Source: Minutocellus sp. GHC0000111
Lineage: Eukaryota
DNA: 64,000 bases
NCBI GenBank assembly: GCA_977018835.1
Contig: OZ361256.1
Location: 1,302,001 to 1,366,000 of the forward strand
Reading direction: 5' to 3'
Both the position numbers and the translations under genes were made by a program. The stretch's first letter is position 1, and every line of letters starts with the position of its first letter. Below, one piece after another: positions 17,223 to 64,000 of the stretch. The notes beneath the pieces were generated by a model that made no database searches, was not told the origin of the DNA, and was given only the letters and a program-made list of their open reading frames with translations.

Positions 17223-17348
17223 ATGCCAATAGCCATGGCACATGTGTTTCATCGATCATATGTGCCGTACTAATCTAGCAGACAATGCCCATAGCCATGG
17301 CACATGTGTTTCATCGATCATATGTGCCGTACTAATCTAGCAGACAAT
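17223..17348. repeat. Tandem duplication, 62-bp unit x2, just upstream of the PRP4 start
   Basis: atgcc(a/c)atagccatggcacatgtgtttcatcgatcatatgtgccgtactaatctagcagaca repeated with one mismatch. Confidence 0.9.
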
Positions 17349-44879: not shown

Positions 44880-45834
44880 CTAATCAAAGTGTACCATACA
44901 GGCATGGGGGGTGAGTGATCCTATAGCATACTGGTACATGTAGATACTGCCATGTATTCCAACCATACAAAGTCCCAGCAATGCGAGTACGAGTAGACAT
45001 GTACCAGTGGCGAGGAGGAGCTGGTTGGTTGCCCGTTGCGTCGATGGTCGAGGGCTTGGAGATTCAGTCGGCGATCGAGTTGACGGTGCTCTAGAGGGAT
45101 ACTTTGTGGGGCTTGGCGAGGGCCTTCCGGTTGGCTGACTAGTCGTTGGAAAATTCGTCGGGACGAATGTAGGCCAGGGTGTAATCGGAGACGCTGTTGG
45201 AGCTGTCGATACCGGTGACGCGCTTGGGGTTGACGTGGGAGAAGGAGTAGGTGGGATGGCAGTTGGCGATTTTGTCGGTGATTTTGATACCGGTGACGCA
45301 CTTGGGGTTGACGTGGGAGAAGGCGTCGACACCGACGATGGTGAAGGATGAGGAACTGTAGCTGATGTCCTGCCATCCAATCGACTGAAAATTATTTTCT
45401 CCCGCAAGGAGACGTAGTCAAAACAACTGTGCTGGCAGGTGCAGGGACAATTCAACGTCAAATCAAGGATTTCCTTCTCCGAGTACTTGTAGGACTGTAT
45501 GCAAATCGCAACTGAAAGTGTGGTGGAATCCTTTGTGATTGGACACAGCTGGTTGATATCCGAATCCCCAAAACCATTGAGCCACTTGTCCAAGCAGCTT
45601 GAGTTATTGGTCTCTTCTCCTGGTGGCGAGCGCATCCAATTAGCGTGTGCCTCGCAGCCAAGACCTGCGGCTGTAGTATAAGTGGGATCGTCGCTGCATG
45701 ATCCATCGTAGCAGGTATTGAGTCGCTGTGGATTTGTCCCTGGTGGTCTGATGCCGAATCTTTGGGTTGTTTCTGCCTGGATAGTTTCTGCTTCAAAACG
45801 CTGCAGCAAATGGTGTTCCTCGCCATTTTCCTGT

Positions 45835-45866
<32 letters not shown>

Positions 45867-46112
45867 TCCAGGTTGAGGTGACGTGCTAAATTGCTGGTGG
45901 GTAAGGGTCGCTTGCAGCTCATTGCGGCGCAGTAGATGTCTCTCATTCTGTCGCTGGTCTGGCTGCCCATTCTGCCGCCTTCGAGCTTCCATGTTATCAT
46001 ACATATGCATTCCCGTCGACGAAAAGAAAGACGAGGCACAATACAGAGAGTGAGCAAAACCAAATGAAAGCAAAGCAAAGTGGAGGGTCTGGTGTCTAGA
46101 AATTCCAAGCAA
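44880..46112 (-). CDS. Cys-rich domain / P-T-S stalk / TM protein, left copy in the palindrome
   Basis: Identical to the 46403 ORF up to SPRPST, then a unique [24 protein letters not shown]; no in-frame ATG before the hydrophobic leader. Confidence 0.55.
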
Positions 46113-46648
46113 AGTAGTAGAGATGGGTCGTCAAAACCACGGGATTCATTGTAGCGATGCCACTATGGACGAAAACGGTGTACGATTCGTAGCAGAGAGG
46201 TGCGGCTGGCTCGCCTGACCTGCTCTCGATCTCGATGCGTACATGTACGTAGGTACATGTACGTACGTACATACACGCATCGAGATCGAGAGCAGGTCAG
46301 GCGAGCCAGCCGCACCTCTCTGCTACGAATCGTACACCGTTTTCGTCCATAGTGGCATCGCTACAATGAATCCCGTGGTTTTGACGACCCATCTCTACTA
46401 CTTTGCTTGGAATTTCTAGACACCAGACCCTCCACTTTGCTTTGCTTTCATTTGGTTTTGCTCACTCTCTGTATTGTGCCTCGTCTTTCTTTTCGTCGAC
46501 GGGAATGCATATGTATGATAACATGGAAGCTCGAAGGCGGCAGAATGGGCAGCCAGACCAGCGACAGAATGAGAGACATCTACTGCGCCGCAATGAGCTG
46601 CAAGCGACCCTTACCCACCAGCAATTTAGCACGTCACCTCAACCTGGA

Positions 46649-46680
<32 letters not shown>

Positions 46681-47477
46681 ACAGGAAAATGGCGAGGAAC
46701 ACCATTTGCTGCAGCGTTTTGAAGCAGAAACTATCCAGGCAGAAACAACCCAAAGATTCGGCATCAGACCACCAGGGACAAATCCACAGCGACTCAATAC
46801 CTGCTACGATGGATCATGCAGCGACGATCCCACTTATACTACAGCCGCAGGTCTTGGCTGCGAGGCACACGCTAATTGGATGCGCTCGCCACCAGGAGAA
46901 GAGACCAATAACTCAAGCTGCTTGGACAAGTGGCTCAATGGTTTTGGGGATTCGGATATCAACCAGCTGTGTCCAATCACAAAGGATTCCACCACACTTT
47001 CAGTTGCGATTTGCATACAGTCCTACAAGTACTCGGAGAAGGAAATCCTTGATTTGACGTTGAATTGTCCCTGCACCTGCCAGCACAGTTGTTTTGACTA
47101 CGTCTCCTTGCGGGAGAAAATAATTTTCAGTCGATTGGATGGCAGGACATCAGCTACAGTTCCTCATCCTTCACCATCGTCGGTGTCGACGCCTTCTCCC
47201 ACGTCAACCCCAAGTGCGTCACCGGTATCAAAATCACCGACAAAATCGCCAACTGCCATCCCACCTACTCCTTCTCCCACGTCAACCCCAAGCGCGTCAC
47301 CGGTATCGACAGCTCCAACAGCGTCTCCGATTACACCCTGGCCTACATTCGTCCCGACGAATTTTCCAACGACTAGTCAGCCAACCGGAAGGCCCTCGCC
47401 AAGCCCCACAAAGTATCCCTCTAGAGCACCGTCAACTCGATCGCCGACTGAATCTCCAAGCCCTCGACCATCGACGC
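45038..47477. repeat. Large inverted repeat: arms 45038-46240 and 46275-47477 (1203 bp each), 34-bp spacer
   Basis: Mirrored ORF coordinates sum to 92515 and give identical translations; arm ends checked by hand. Confidence 0.95.
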
Positions 47478-58256: not shown

Positions 58257-59150
58257 GGTGCAATGGTGAGTGTTGCAGTTGAAGATGTTTTGAAGATCCT
58301 TCTCGCACTAGTTCCAAGAGGGCATCAAACTCCCAAACGAAGATGGTCGCAATCTGCTACGCAACTTTGCCTGCGTTACATATTAGCATTCAGGACGGAA
58401 AAGACAACGAAGAGAGTGAGAGAATGAGAATTGGGGGAACTGGGTAATGCCGCAAATGATGTAAATTCTCCCACCAAAAGGTTGCCCCCCCACCACCACC
58501 ACCACCCAAGACACAAGGATTTCTCCAAAGTGAAGGAGAAATGCCAACGCGATATGCGTCGGCATGGGCCAAAGGGTCGAGCCAAGGAACGGCGCAATCG
58601 GACTATAAATGATGGATGGGTGGTTTCATTTTCTGGCGCGCACTGCCTGCTATTTTAAAAGGCACGACCACGCAAAAGGCAACGAAAGAGTAACCCGCCT
58701 GCCCTCCGCATGCTCTTGGTAAAGGCCCATTTCAACTGGGTGAAGAAACCACACAGCAAAGGTTTCTCCATCAACCGTACTGATCTAAAAGAATCGCCAT
58801 GGAACATACCCGATTGGTGCGGTTTGGCGCAACCCGCCAACAAGAAAACACCATAAAGAACGAAATAATTCCGCCGAGCAAAGCTGGCTAGCTTACCTCT
58901 CCTGCACACCGACACCGTAGAAGGTACTAAGGAATGCTCTTCGATGGACGGGTATGGAAGTGGTTATGCTCAACGCGGCCGTCAGAACCCTTCGTTATGC
59001 TGGCCAGCGAAGAAGCCATCGAATTGCTTGAACGTCGTGGGTACCGCACGGTGGGGATGAGCTGGCGACGGTGGTTAGCAGCAGGCACTAAAACTGCATT
59101 CCTGTAGTGCCCAGTTTTTCTGCTGACCACCACCTTCGCCTCCTCTCGTC

Positions 59151-59428
59151 TCAACTGACCAAGCCACAACCATCTGCGATTGCTGCCGTTGCAATTGCTA
59201 AGTCAGCTTACAGTACCGGCTCCCAGAGCCTGTCTCTCTCTCTCTCAGTAGTTAGTTAGTTTTAAATTCCCTCAAACCGCCTCCTCACCCTCTAAGAAGT
59301 TTCATTTACCGCCTCATCAACTGACCAAGCCACAACCATCTGCGATTGCTGCCGTTGCAATTGCTAAGTCAGCTTACAGTACCGGCTCCCAGAGCCTGTC
59401 TCTCTCTCTCAGTAGTTAGTTAGTTTTA
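59151..59428 (+). repeat. Direct repeat pair 59151-59264 / 59317-59428 at the 5' side of the retroelement
   Basis: tcaactgaccaagcc...(tc)n agtagttagttagtttta repeated; the copies differ by one TC unit. Confidence 0.92.
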
Positions 59429-59546
59429 GCATGAGGTTGGTGCTACTCTACGAGTTCGTAATTATTGGCCGACACACCACCACTGCTGTTAGTCCAGAGA
59501 CCACAGTCGACTCCGGAGTCAAACGGCCACACGGCTCAGCTCTCCG

Positions 59547-61022
59547 TTGATAGTGCACGTAGATCCGATACCAGTCTCTACGACGGCAGAACAGTGCATG
59601 GCCGAACCAGATCGACCGGAACTGGATCACGTGTTGTTCGGAGTGGCAAGAGACCTCATCGTCCGAGGAGACTCTCCTGACCTTCCACGAGGCTGGGACA
59701 GACTCAGACGTCAGATTCGGCCCGGGCGCAGAAGTTTCTTCACAGCCAGGGCGTCGTCCGAGAGACTGACCACAGACGCACTGGATTGGTGGAAAAGTTT
59801 TGCCGAGGGCCGAATCGACGTTACCGAGTACCTCACCGATCTCGTCGAGCGCGCCACAGGCTACCTCCCATCGAGAGCCACGGGGTACCAGCCATCCCCA
59901 GCAGCAGCCGTTTCACACCTTACTCCAGTAGCGCACGGTCTGGTCGCCGAGCACCTCGAGCAACAAGCCTTCTTGGTGTCACCGGACTGGCCCACGTACC
60001 TCGTCAACATCTGGCTGATAGCCACGCGCCTTACCGAGCCTGAGATCCGCCGGGCACACGAGACGGCAACTGAGTTGGACCTGAGCAGTGCACTGCACCG
60101 ACTACCACGGGCAGACGGAGGCGTCGTGGTTCAACAGCATCGGGGGCGAAGGTGTCCGGAGGCATCGGTAGCAGCAGCGCGGCAACACCATTGCATCTGG
60201 CCCCAGCTCTGCTGGCTCACGCAGTGCATCCTCCACTACCAGGCCGACCGAAAAGAAAGACGGCGCATCGCGGCCAGAGAGGGCAGACCTCTAGAGCCGA
60301 CACCGCACGCTTGCATAGGTTCACGGGGGAGCGAGCTTCCACCAACGCTGCCGCTCACTTATTTCGAGTGGGAGGTAAGGCCACTCTTCTACCCACGTGA
60401 CGCACACGACCGAACCGAGCGGGCTGGCGTCAGTGTGGCATTGGAGCGAGGAGATCTCATCGGCCCTTTCGCCCTGATCACCCAGTTCCCGCTGGATTCG
60501 CCGTACCCGTTCCAGAGACGGCAGTGCCTACGACCGGACCAACTCACTGAAGCTGTTATCAACTGGGACAGTGGATTCGAGAGCCTCACCAGCGCTCGAC
60601 TCCGACACACTCGGCCTGACAGCAATCCTCTTGGACACCGAGTGGAGGTCAACCCGTGCGAACACTGGGGAAGGCTGGCAGACCTAACGGCGTCCCCCTC
60701 ACACCGCTGGGCAGGCACCTGCCATCGAGTCTATCCGAGGTGGCTAGACGATGCGGCCGATCCAAATCGCTGGGAGGGCACCCACTACCGCGTCTGGCCA
60801 AGAGCATCAATTCACCGGCGCCCCGACGATCTCGAGGCACCTATCCGCCTGCGAGATATCACCGCCGACATTTTGGCATCAGAGCCACCGCGTCAGGCAT
60901 TCAACATCCTTCTATCCGCCTTTGGAGAGCCCGACATCGCCGACCGCATCCTCACCCTCACGGCCGATCTGAACCACATCCAGCGCCGAGAGGACCGACG
61001 CCGAAGGCGACAGGCAAGGTGA
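59547..61022 (+). CDS. Retroelement 5' ORF of unknown function
   Basis: 491-codon ORF between the terminal repeats and the gag-like ORF; no domain recognised. Confidence 0.5.
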   Translation: MIVHVDPIPVSTTAEQCMAEPDRPELDHVLFGVARDLIVRGDSPDLPRGWDRLRRQIRPGRRSFFTARASSERLTTDALDWWKSFAEGRIDVTEYLTDLVERATGYLPSRATGYQPSPAAAVSHLTPVAHGLVAEHLEQQAFLVSPDWPTYLVNIWLIATRLTEPEIRRAHETATELDLSSALHRLPRADGGVVVQQHRGRRCPEASVAAARQHHCIWPQLCWLTQCILHYQADRKERRRIAAREGRPLEPTPHACIGSRGSELPPTLPLTYFEWEVRPLFYPRDAHDRTERAGVSVALERGDLIGPFALITQFPLDSPYPFQRRQCLRPDQLTEAVINWDSGFESLTSARLRHTRPDSNPLGHRVEVNPCEHWGRLADLTASPSHRWAGTCHRVYPRWLDDAADPNRWEGTHYRVWPRASIHRRPDDLEAPIRLRDITADILASEPPRQAFNILLSAFGEPDIADRILTLTADLNHIQRREDRRRRRQAR

Positions 61023-61038
61023 TCGAGCATTGATCACC

Positions 61039-61635
61039 ATGGCTTCATCTTTCAACACCTGGAAGTCAGTCCTGCTGGCACAAGAGATGCCGGCCGGGGC
61101 CGACGCCGCCGCAGCTCGAGATTTCCAGAGATTCCTCGCCGACAACGTCTGTGAAACCGACCCCACGGCCGCCATGGTCCAGAGCCATGCCCGAGCGATC
61201 CAGCAGCAAACCCGCGACGCCGAGGGTTTGTCCATGCTGGCCCACCATCCAGAAGGGAAAGTCGTGGTGATTCACCATGCCGTGGCTCAGGGAGGCACCA
61301 CCATGCAGCCCGACCTCAGGTTGGGTGGGCTCCTCGGGATCGACGATGTAGCCCCGGCAACATCGTTGGCCCAACCTAGCCTCTTGCGGCACAAGGAGGT
61401 CCTAGCCCCATCGGTGGAAGCCATGCTGGGGGCACCGTCAGAAGCCGCCCTAACCGGTCTCACCCAGGAAGGCTCCAACACCCGCCACCGGAGTGCCTCC
61501 ACGAAGTTTAAGTCCCTTGTGCTGCTGCCACCTTCGATTCTCCACCACGGTCGGACAGACCCGCATGCTCGTGAAAGTGCAGCATGTGCACATCTCACCT
61601 TTTTCTCGCCTCATGCAATTCCACGTGGGAACTAG
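61039..61635 (+). pseudogene. Truncated gag-like ORF of the retroelement
   Basis: MASSFNTWKSVLL...VIHH...LLPP, ending abruptly where the pol frame begins; position is typical of a DIRS-type gag ORF. Confidence 0.5.
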
Positions 61636-64000
61636 AGCCCATCTTCGATGTTTCCACCTTGGTGCAGCACGTCCGACGAGCAGTCGAGTCCCCGTCGGCC
61701 ACACCGAAGCCCACGGAGTTCAGATTTGAGCTCTTGACGGAGGAGGCCGCCGCTCACAATTGGTCGGTCCTCAAGAAACACGATCGTTCTCTGAGCAGGG
61801 CACTCGAGGCGCAGGGCGGGTCGCCACTCCAACCGGGATCGGAGTTCAGAGACCTGAGTCTTCTGGAGCCGACTCTTGGCCGGCACCCTCTGTGGCCCCG
61901 CTTCCGCTCCACTCTTGACAGTGGATCCGACTGGGCCCTCGATCCGGTGAGCGACGAAAGCAGACTGGACAGCGTGACAAAGAACATCGGCCGAGGCAAC
62001 CACAAATCGGCCAGGGACAGGCCGGAGGCACTCAAGGACCAAGTTCTCGACGACGTGACCCGCGGCTTCGCCCTCCCTCTGCCAGCAAAGGTCGCGCCCC
62101 TCATTCCTGGAGCGGAGGTGGCTCCGATGGGGGTTTGGTGGCACAGAACACGATCAGCGAGGCTGGCGAGATCATGCCCAAGGACCGCCTGACTCACGAC
62201 CAATCCTTCGAGATCGGCACCGCACGGTCCGTCAACAACAGAGTGCGCATGGAGGACCACCAGCCAGTGGTGTTCGGCCATGCCCTCCGGCGAGTGATCC
62301 ACTGCATCGTGGACGCCCGTCACAAGCATCCCCGTGCTCCCATCCTCCTGCAGAAGGTCGACTTCAAGGCTGCGTGTCGCCGGGCCCACTTGGCTCCCAG
62401 CACGGCCGTCAAAACGATCACCACCCTGGATGGCATTGCCCTCATGTCCCTCCGGCTGACTTTCGGCGGCCGCCCTTGCCCGAGCGAATGGTGGTGCAAC
62501 ACATCCGAATCGGCGGCCGACCTGGCCAGGGCCCTCCTGCAACGCTCGGACTGGGACCCGTCAGAGCTCCACAGCCCCCAGCAGAAGCACTTGGGTCGCC
62601 CCAAGGTGGAGGGCGACGATGTGCCATTCGCGCCGGCCCTGGACATGATCGTGACCCTTCCCGACAACAAGGATGGCATCGTCGAGCCGCACATCGATGA
62701 CCTCATCGCCGCAGCCCCTGACCTGGGCGACAACAAGGATCGGACATCCGCTGCCACCCTCCTCGCCATCCACGCGCTTGGCCGACCGGTGTCCGACAGC
62801 GAGCCACTGCCCAGAGATGACCTTGCCTCCATCAAGAAGCTGCTCGCCGAGGGGACGCCTTCCGAAGCACTGTGTCTCTTGGGGTGGGATGCTGACACCC
62901 GGCGGCTCCTGCTGAGGCTCCCTTGGAGCAAGTGCCTGGCCTGGCGCGATGACATGCTTCGGCTCCTCAGAGCCCGCGGCGCCACCAGATCAGAGCTGGA
63001 CACCTTGGTCGGAAGGCTAAACCACGTCGGATGCATCATTCCAGCCGCACGACACTTCCTCTCAGCCGCCTTCGGGATCGGCTCTGGAAGGCCCGCCGCC
63101 ACGGCCGCCAACGGCTCGACTCTGAGGATGCAGAAGACCTCAACCTGTGGCTCCGCTTCCTCCGAAGGGCCGCCGGTGGCATGAGCATGAACCTCCTCAC
63201 GTGCCGTTGCCCCACCCACGAGTGCACAAGTGACGCCTGCGAGCACGGCATCGGCGGATGGTCCTCATCCGGCAGAGCGTGGAGATTTGCCCTCCCCGAG
63301 GAGCCATGGGGCCGGTTCACCCTCAATTACCTGGAATTCCTCGCCGCCGTCATCGGCCCATGGATCGACCACATCGAGGGCAACCTGCCAACCCTCTCCT
63401 GCGTGCTGTCGGGGACCGACAGCACCACGGCCGAGGGATGGCTCAGGAAGTCGAACTTCGTGTCTCACGGCGAGAAGGATGCCGACGTAGCGGTCAAGCT
63501 GGCCACGGCGCGGAAACTAGCCGACATGCTCATCGAGACCAACACCATGCTGCTGTGCTCACAGTGGTTCCAGGGGAAGCGCAATCCGGAGGCCGATTCT
63601 CTTTCTCGTGATGCCGATCTCTCTGATGCTGACCTCACGAAATTGCTTCTGTCATCTCCCGAATGTCAGCTTCCCTCAAATTTCAGGATTGCACCACTGC
63701 CCAACGAGATCACTTCCTGGATTGTCTCGCAGGCGCGGACGCTGCCCCCGTCAGGAAGCAGTTACAACGGCCACTGCCGAGAAGCACGCTCTCTCGCGCG
63801 TGGAGCCGCTGGACTGAGTTCCTGCAGCTCATCGGGACCGGGGACGACGTCTTCCTCGACAAGGTGTCACCCCGAGACCGAACAGTCATTCTCGGCGCCT
63901 TTGCCCACGCCGTCCGACAGGCCACCAGCTTTTCGGGGCCAAAGTTTTCGCGACTGGCTGCGTCGACAGTCCGAGACACCGTCTCACATGCACGTGCTCT
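61584..64000 (+). pseudogene. RT-RNase H (pol) pseudogene, frameshifts at about 62132 and 63062, catalytic YIDD changed to HIDD
   Basis: SPLQPGSEFR..LEP.LGRHPLW, RGNHKSA, RT and RNase H motifs spread over three frames. Confidence 0.88.

What the first reader, a model, noticed from the sequence alone, without database searches (positions are those of the whole stretch)
61021..64000. Retrotransposon stripped of TpA: two-strand TA->CA/TG hypermutation ('reverse RIP')
Seen: by hand count only about 11 TA dinucleotides in 61021-64000 and none in 61635-63017 (about 1.38 kb). The 349-aa RT ORF and 201-aa gag-like ORF contain no Tyr, while the element's own 5' ORF (59547-61022) has 10. Positions where DIRS-type RT/RNase H normally have Tyr read His or Cys: HIDD (cac at 62690; canonical YxDD), KAACRR (tgt 62375), IHCIV (tgc 62303), HVGCII, KCLAW, HECTSDAC, LLCSQW. 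Likely Ile/Val sites read Thr/Met/Ala (NTSE, WDADT, DDML). Each is explained by TA->CA or TA->TG, i.e. A->G in a TpA context on both strands. Established: fungal RIP runs the opposite way (CA/TG->TA), and TadA/ADAR-type adenine deaminases prefer a 5' U/T. Inference: a repeat-targeted adenine-deamination or error-prone repair defence acting on DNA, fading toward the element's 5' edge. I know of no named system of this kind in diatoms but cannot check the literature.
Basis: partly seen in the sequence, partly recalled or inferred. Interest (0 to 1): 0.88.

Follow-up and report, generated by a model that had tools for sequence, protein, structure and literature searches.

The report
TA-erasing mutation kills diatom retrotransposon
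Dozens of copies of a jumping gene in a diatom have each had their TA steps rewritten to CA or TG, on both strands and mostly where TA is followed by C or T, which destroys the element's key enzymes while nearby genes are untouched and likely reflects a little-known DNA-editing genome defence.

Summary
Confirmed. 61021-64000 holds 11 TA (42-62 expected), and none in 61635-63017. The element is a diatom tyrosine-recombinase (Ngaro-like) retrotransposon. In 72 proteins from sister copies, 59 of 62 polymorphic codons are TA/CA/TG triads (background 418 of 978). The RT catalytic YIDD reads His in 22 copies, Cys in 6 and Tyr in none, while 176 of 177 distant relatives keep Tyr/Phe. Sites are unlinked, and all 45 well-covered copies carry both products, so integrated DNA was hit copy by copy on both strands.

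Added here:
- The mutated A is mostly in 5'-TAY-3'; TAR is hit about ten times less.
- The core is saturated, while ORF1 and probably the 3' end are only partly hit.
- Copies also carry many 2-4 nt duplications, unrelated in position to TA.

The TpA->TpG/CpA signature is already described in Bigelowiella natans (2026 preprint). This scan also noted it earlier in two windows of other diatom DNA. My searches found no paper on it in diatoms. The best mechanism is a chromatin-guided DNA adenine deaminase (about 0.5); the enzyme is untested because no host genome was available.

The parts
59033..59313 (+). Element terminal sequence upstream of the ORFs; likely a 3'-end piece of an element copy (inferred)
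   Evidence: Contigs of 4 runs run off into different flanks behind 59313, and in run X1 before 59033 (table 7); the C-terminus of relative P0121 matches 59048-59117
59151..59264 (+). Direct repeat, copy 1 (about 112 nt); TA not depleted
   Evidence: TA o/e 0.86 over 59033-59440
59317..59428 (+). Direct repeat, copy 2
   Evidence: one RNA-run contig skips one copy (table 5)
59538..61022 (+). ORF1 of unknown function; partly mutated (RTAY sites keep TA in 79 of 237 copy observations; this copy keeps 13 of 21 three-state sites)
   Evidence: no Pfam hit
61039..61541 (+).
   Evidence: loose ends at 61541/61542 in all 4 runs; P0096 continues differently
61635..63017 (.). TA-free run of 1383 nt
61632..63058 (+). 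pol, reverse-transcriptase part, broken by small duplications at 61739, 62129 and 62489; catalytic Tyr codon at 62690 reads CAC
   Evidence: the model of sister copy P0055 matches Ty3 and MMLV RT, Foldseek E 6.4e-6
63061..63790 (+). pol, RNase H-like part (label from recalled motifs and alignment to intact relatives; no Pfam hit)
   Evidence: P0126 61% identical over 243 aa; negative
63663..64000 (+). Start of the tyrosine-recombinase ORF, overlapping the pol end and cut by the window edge
   Evidence: [quoted passage not shown]
59531..63925 (.). Eleven listed 2-4 nt insertions of this copy against the majority path (59531, 59540, 61739, 62129, 62489, 63059, 63548, 63554, 63745, 63793, 63922); most repeat adjacent bases
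   Evidence: table 4 (12 of 32 rows shown)

Best explanation
After this retrotransposon spread through the diatom genome, each integrated copy had its TA steps converted to TG or CA on both strands, mainly at TAC and TAT, likely by a host DNA adenine deaminase guided to silenced chromatin. Shown: the ancestral state was TA; copies resolved each site independently; both products occur within single copies; the A in 5'-TAY-3' is preferred; the core is saturated; RT and recombinase catalytic tyrosines are lost; flanking genes are spared. Inferred: A is deaminated to inosine, which is copied as G, one strand per event, so each palindromic TA ends as TG or CA and is then immune. Targeting probably follows methylated heterochromatin, which would be strongest mid-element. 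Because Tyr codons are TAY and stop codons are TAR, the process strips Tyr from the element's proteins without making stops.
For: Triad polymorphism 59 of 62 against 418 of 978, P 1e-18. Outgroups keep Tyr/Phe in 174 of 175 and 176 of 177 cases. Short-read contigs show CA<->TG swaps at equal depth at 7 site pairs in run X11, with TA left only at 62303 and 62310. No linkage between sites: mean r2 0.063 vs 0.058 shuffled, p 0.16, four gametes in 168 of 195 pairs. 45 of 45 proteins with 4 or more hits carry both products, with no strand heterogeneity, p 0.81. TAY vs TAR in ORF1: 303 of 972 vs 11 of 353; same-site two-strand test 80 vs 14, 10 of 11 sites with one tie. Seven of the 11 surviving TA are YTAR, p 3e-4. 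Background A>G follows the 5' order A 5.6 > C 2.2 > G 1.2 per 1000, as recalled for adenosine deaminases. TAC is the stated TadA preference (PMC8065034, passages). CpG transitions are about 4-fold raised, hinting at methylation.
Against: No enzyme was found or could be sought, since no host genome is held. The only natural DNA-editing ADAT I read about prefers GAA, not TA (PMC10354150, passages). The roughly 55-fold or greater preference of TAY over AA looks tighter than engineered TadA editors, which that paper calls broad in context. A deaminase does not explain the short duplications, which lie no nearer to TA than random (mean 33 vs 22 nt). Lack of linkage could partly come from gene conversion. 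Sister copies were read as proteins only, some may be fragments or haplotigs of one copy, and assignment to one assembly rests on shared source and contig lengths. Methylation and silencing were not measured, and RNA runs hold the element.
Confidence: 0.5

Rival explanations
1. An error-prone repair polymerase (Pol eta type), or locally relaxed mismatch repair on silenced DNA, inserts G opposite T and also slips, producing both the A>G changes and the short duplications.
For: AA is the next most mutated context (4 of 7 non-TA T>C differences of this copy, read), as a WA motif predicts. In-frame insertions outnumber deletions 41 residues to 2 events. One process would cover both signatures.
Against: TAY is hit about 55-fold or more above AA. 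The antibody hypermutation hot spot is TAA (PMC6102386, passages), which belongs to the class spared here. Almost no transversions were seen.
Confidence: 0.2
2. The T is the marked base: a TET/JBP-type enzyme oxidises T at R-T-A on transposons as an epigenetic mark, and the oxidised T mispairs with G.
For: In dinoflagellates 5hmU marks transposons and is reported to replace T preferentially in TA and TC (PMC11572971, passages). A dinucleotide-specific writer would explain the tight specificity.
Against: TC (GA on the other strand) is the least mutated context here. The listing showed no paper linking diatoms to 5hmU or JBP.
Confidence: 0.1
3. A methyl mark on the A of TpA (6mA) is laid on foreign DNA and decays or is deaminated to inosine, in parallel to CpG decay.
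For: It would give strict dinucleotide specificity and slow, copy-by-copy accumulation, in line with the wide spread of load between copies (2 of 21 to 19 of 21 TA kept, P 3e-7).
Against: The known eukaryotic 6mA is at ApT (recalled), yet TAC is hit as often as TAT (241 of 766 vs 62 of 206 in ORF1). No methyltransferase domain is seen between RNase H and recombinase in this element.
Confidence: 0.1
4. The changes arose in the element's RNA or during reverse transcription (ADAR-like editing or RT error), or are an intrinsic codon bias of the family.
For: ADAR favours a 5' U (stated in the B. natans preprint); the family is present in RNA runs.
Against: Every well-covered copy has both strand products in balance; states are unlinked across copies; copies without the catalytic Tyr could hardly keep cycling; relatives keep Tyr.
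Confidence: 0.04

Closest known systems
TpA-specific hypermutation of integrated NCLDV and virophage DNA in Bigelowiella natans (Mettrop et al., bioRxiv 10.64898/2026.01.13.699255; abstract to conclusion read, methods in passages, supplements closed)
   Same: A>G and T>C almost only at TpA, giving TpG and CpA; confined to foreign DNA; patchy between lines there and between copies here; RT and DDE domains are enriched among its TpA-depleted genes; an ADAT-type deaminase is proposed.
   Different: Diatom rather than chlorarachniophyte (the word diatom is absent from its text). The target is a multi-copy retrotransposon driven to saturation (o/e 0.11, core 0) rather than a single-copy viral insert (Rho 0.45). 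A 3'-pyrimidine rule, an edge-to-core profile and short duplications are not reported in the text I read. Here the process is inferred from copies; there it was measured de novo.
Fungal repeat-induced point mutation (RIP)
   Same: Irreversible, dinucleotide-biased transitions on both strands that inactivate transposon copies. Diatoms have RID-related DNMT4 of unknown function (PMC9998398, passages).
   Different: Opposite direction (RIP makes TpA, this removes it); removes no stops by creating them but erases Tyr; dependence on homology pairing or sex is unshown.
Ngaro tyrosine-recombinase retrotransposons (PMC3783388, PMC8547959, passages)
   Same: ORF1, RT/RNase H, overlapping recombinase with His-x-x-Arg and catalytic Tyr, no methyltransferase seen, direct terminal repeats.
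   Different: Too divergent for Pfam; an extra 5' ORF; the A-[ORFs]-B-A-B layout cannot be verified because the window cuts the element.
TadA / ADAT2 adenosine deaminases acting on DNA (TadA editors, amphioxus BjADAT2)
   Same: A>G chemistry; TAC is the stated TadA preference (PMC8065034).
   Different: BjADAT2 prefers GAA and hairpin loops (PMC10354150); no such enzyme was identified here.

Membership tests
B. natans-type TpA hypermutation | Changes almost only A:T>G:C at TpA | tested here: met
   59 of 62 polymorphic codons; 22 of 29 DNA rows
B. natans-type TpA hypermutation | Both TpG and CpA products | tested here: met
   176 CA and 149 TG at 19 symmetric sites; 45 of 45 proteins carry both
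B. natans-type TpA hypermutation | Confined to foreign DNA, host genes spared | tested here: met
   19 host ORFs o/e 0.46-0.83, longest gap 327 nt; this window only
B. natans-type TpA hypermutation | About 1000-fold raised de novo rate, active in some lines only | not testable with these tools
   No mutation-accumulation data; copy-to-copy overdispersion is only suggestive
B. natans-type TpA hypermutation | Candidate ADAT2-like DNA deaminase in the host | not testable with these tools
   No host genome held
Fungal RIP | C>T at CpA/TpG creating TpA | tested here: not met
   Direction is opposite; outgroups carry the TA-state residue
Fungal RIP | Triggered by duplicated sequence | tested here: inconclusive
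   A 2440-nt host inverted repeat has TA o/e 0.58 and identical arms outside its centre, but it may be recent or an assembly artefact
Fungal RIP | RID/DNMT4 dependence, premeiotic timing | not testable with these tools
   No genome, no crosses
Ngaro retrotransposon | LTR-type reverse transcriptase | tested here: met
   Foldseek top hits Ty3 and MMLV RT, E 6.4e-6
Ngaro retrotransposon | RNase H after RT | tested here: inconclusive
   Conserved acidic motifs in alignments recognised from recall; no Pfam hit; not folded
Ngaro retrotransposon | Tyrosine recombinase with His-x-x-Arg and catalytic Tyr | tested here: met
   Motifs visible in sister proteins; Pfam negative; not folded
Ngaro retrotransposon | No methyltransferase domain (present in DIRS proper) | tested here: met
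   The recombinase ORF starts inside the pol end with no room for one
Ngaro retrotransposon | Split direct repeats A-[ORFs]-B-A-B | tested here: inconclusive
   Direct repeats at the 5' side; the 3' end lies outside the window
RNA-level (ADAR/RT) hyper-editing | One-strand bias within a copy | tested here: not met
Pol eta WA mutagenesis | AA and TAA are hot spots | tested here: not met
   TAR spared, AA far below TAY

The most novel reading that the evidence does not exclude
Diatoms and other SAR algae share an undescribed genome-defence pathway, a mirror image of RIP, in which a natural double-stranded-DNA adenine deaminase with 5'-TAY-3' specificity is steered to silenced mobile DNA. It strips every Tyr codon from transposon proteins without making stops, and is accompanied by duplication-prone repair.
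Probability: 0.4. Interest if true: 0.92.

Novelty: new member of a known kind. Interest (0 to 1): 0.72.

Why it matters
Targeted DNA hypermutation of mobile elements is known mainly as cytosine chemistry (RIP, APOBEC). An adenine/thymine counterpart has one preprint report, in an unrelated alga and on viral inserts. A diatom retrotransposon family wiped to saturation suggests the process is wider and can silence transposons permanently. The TAY rule is a cheap fingerprint: it can test at once whether B. natans and diatoms share one enzyme, and it narrows the candidates. Diatoms have CRISPR tools, so the enzyme can be hunted. A natural dsDNA adenine deaminase would interest the base-editing field. 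In practice, such decayed copies keep long stop-free frames, miss Pfam, and distort TE dating and GC content.

Tried and rejected
- No host genome was held, so genome-wide TE-versus-gene scans and a deaminase search were impossible.
- The JGI metagenome scan with the window's RT found no relative (76 pattern hits, none confirmed); two alignment queries were unusable. DNA of individual sister copies was therefore never read.
- Pfam found nothing relevant for element proteins or relatives, and the PDB sequence search was empty.
- Rejected: assembly artefact for the substitutions, because contigs of other runs show the same CA/TG states.
- Rejected: family-intrinsic codon bias and GC content.
- Rejected: duplications made by breaks at TA sites.
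- Runs X16, X19 and X20 hold the same family mostly at 95-99% identity, probably from the same diatom, so they are not outgroups.
- No intact transcribed master was seen: RNA-run majority paths match the DNA majority, but contigs drop rare variants.
- A scripted classification of insertions as tandem duplications was not completed; that count is by eye.
- One host ORF was given the wrong strand; this affects only its Tyr tally, which I do not use.
- Earlier-findings look-ups by place and by sequence were empty.
Full report
Observation. TA observed/expected is 0.11 in that stretch and 0.57 in ORF1. It is 0.66 in the host part and 0.46-0.83 in 19 long host ORFs, including ORFs of 58-65% GC. The longest TA-free gap outside the element is 327 nt. 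Even at the lowest host 1-kb value (0.41), 42 TA are expected, P 1e-8. CA and TG are mildly raised (1.24, 1.23); AA, TT and AT are normal.

Host and element. A host gene's nearest Atlas cluster is mostly eukaryotic with Bacillariophyta commonest, and a named relative of the RT is from Skeletonema, so the host is a diatom. No whole genome is held. A model of sister protein P0055 (pLDDT 84) matches Ty3 and MMLV reverse transcriptases. The frame starting at 63663 continues, in sister proteins, into a tyrosine recombinase with His-x-x-Arg and a catalytic Tyr. It overlaps the end of pol and leaves no room for the methyltransferase of DIRS proper. With the direct repeats at 59151-59264 and 59317-59428 this is an Ngaro-like element by the definitions in PMC3783388 and PMC8547959 (passages); the full repeat layout cannot be checked.

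Sister copies. Only 15 of 31 and 15 of 33 members of the two largest clusters were listed. I used 72 proteins (33 ORF1, 39 pol) and left out 10: other subfamilies, one duplicate and the window's own two. Of 978 codons covered by 8 or more proteins, 418 contain a CA/TG/TA whose state changes the residue. Of 62 polymorphic codons (minor residue in 3 or more proteins), 59 are such triads: Tyr/His/Cys, Ile/Thr/Met, Val/Ala, Thr/Ala (P 1e-18). The three exceptions are A>G or T>C changes in AA/TT context. His and Cys at one site, two changes apart, are both one step from TA. Outgroups settle the direction. Among 182 relatives, the KAAYRR position is Tyr/Phe in 174 of 175 ungapped rows and the YIDD position in 176 of 177. 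In sister copies these positions read C24/H2 and H22/C6, never Tyr. Four relatives do show His/Cys at such columns, one of them at two.

DNA check. Contigs from independent runs agree. Of 40 rows shown (19 hidden), 18 are nine adjacent CA<->TG swaps, 7 restore TA and 1 removes it. In one search, 22 of 29 rows fall at triad sites. In run X11 seven site pairs change at equal depth, so no TA state is visible there, while TA persists at 62303 (CTAC) and 62310 (GTAG). RNA-run majority paths match the DNA majority, so no intact master was seen; contigs drop rare variants, and RNA libraries may hold DNA.

How it acted. CA/TG states are unlinked between pol sites (mean r2 0.063 vs 0.058 shuffled, p 0.16; four gametes in 168 of 195 pairs). 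All 45 proteins with 4 or more hits at symmetric sites carry both products, with no strand skew between copies. Load differs strongly between copies in ORF1 (2 of 21 to 19 of 21 TA kept, P 3e-7). This fits single events accumulating on integrated double-stranded DNA after a burst from a TA-bearing master, and not RNA editing or RT error. Gene conversion could also loosen linkage, and some proteins may be pieces or haplotigs of one copy.

Context rule. I scored each site on the strand where A becomes G, setting aside six overlapping sites. In ORF1, TAY is hit in 303 of 972 observations and TAR in 11 of 353; in pol, 338 of 710 and 25 of 177. Site ascertainment differs between classes, so the cleaner test is asymmetric three-state sites, where one site offers TAY on one strand and TAR on the other: 80 vs 14, in 10 of 11 sites with one tie. 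Seven of the 11 surviving TA in this copy are YTAR, resistant on both strands (host share 15%, p 3e-4). A 5' purine seems to add in pol. Away from TA, A>G runs at 5.6, 2.2 and 1.2 per 1000 after A, C and G, and CpG transitions are about four times other G>A, a hint of CpG methylation.

Position. RTAY sites keep TA in 79 of 237 observations in ORF1 but in 1 of 168 in pol. In the recombinase beyond the window, Tyr is kept in 1 of 65 observations at residues 106-188 and 39 of 117 at residues 208-355, though in 7 of 21 at residue 17 and 0 of 10 at residue 384 (contexts unknown there). So the core is hit hardest, the 5' ORF clearly less, and the 3' end probably less. Within ORF1 there is no smooth slope.

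Second signature. Sister proteins carry 41 in-frame inserted residues against 2 deletion events, and 37 of the 41 repeat a neighbouring residue (read by eye). The window copy has its own 2-4 nt duplications. They are not near TA sites. Against a pure insertion bias, run X11 lists six low-depth 1-nt deletions. Short-read support for the duplications is thin (one contig at depth 2), so an assembly contribution is not excluded. This signature is unexplained.

Mechanism. I favour a chromatin-guided DNA adenine deaminase (0.5). TAC is the stated TadA preference (PMC8065034, passages) and the 5' order T >> A > C > G fits such enzymes (recalled). However, amphioxus BjADAT2 prefers GAA (PMC10354150, passages) and no enzyme was found. 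An error-prone polymerase (0.2) would explain the AA changes and duplications, but its antibody hot spot TAA (PMC6102386, passages) is the spared class. Thymine oxidation (0.1) has a dinoflagellate precedent at TA and TC on transposons (PMC11572971, passages), but TC is coldest here. 6mA decay gets 0.1. That the process is a defence is an inference from its effect.

What is known. The signature is described in Bigelowiella natans from a mutation-accumulation experiment (bioRxiv 10.64898/2026.01.13.699255; abstract to conclusion, passages). Its supplements, which list each mutation, were closed and could already show the TAY rule. Searches listed no paper on it in diatoms; I saw only the top listings and the library lacks most subscription papers. 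After finding the preprint I saw two earlier notes of this scan on other diatom DNA with the same reading; a look-up for the TAY context or duplications found none. Diatoms have RID-related DNMT4 of unknown function (PMC9998398, passages), a lead for targeting only.

Verdict. The feature is real and strong. It is a new member of a recently reported, mechanistically open kind, with a sharper motif and evidence of copy-by-copy action on DNA. Interest 0.72.

Noticed in passing
window 45038-47477: A 2440-nt near-perfect palindrome (arms differ only at 3 positions near the centre) duplicates the 5' part of a host gene head to head; TA content is normal. Real inverted duplication or assembly artefact.
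   Followed up: partly
window 61541/61542: Internal deletion of this copy: majority contigs continue for at least 223 nt of other sequence.
   Followed up: partly
window 62578-62612: Contigs in runs X3, X6 and X11 share only this stretch and run on into unrelated sequence on both sides; a captured fragment or a chance match.
   Followed up: no
P0279, P0280, P0035, P0126, P0092, P0121: Sister subfamilies on short ENA contigs keep most Tyr; P0280 shows a few His/Cys at Tyr columns, so related hosts may be partly affected.
   Followed up: partly
P0235 (also P0011, P0018, P0032): Distant relatives with Cys or His at or beside conserved aromatic RT positions; possible traces of the same process in other hosts.
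   Followed up: no
library search: This RT clade is large (1535 representative proteins at E 1e-30), yet none of the members I scanned is recognised by Pfam.
   Followed up: no
window 59538-61022: ORF1 has homologues only in this family and one sister subfamily among 7996 candidates scored; its function is unknown.
   Followed up: partly
window 17223-17348: Short 64-nt tandem duplication just upstream of a kinase-like ORF.
   Followed up: no
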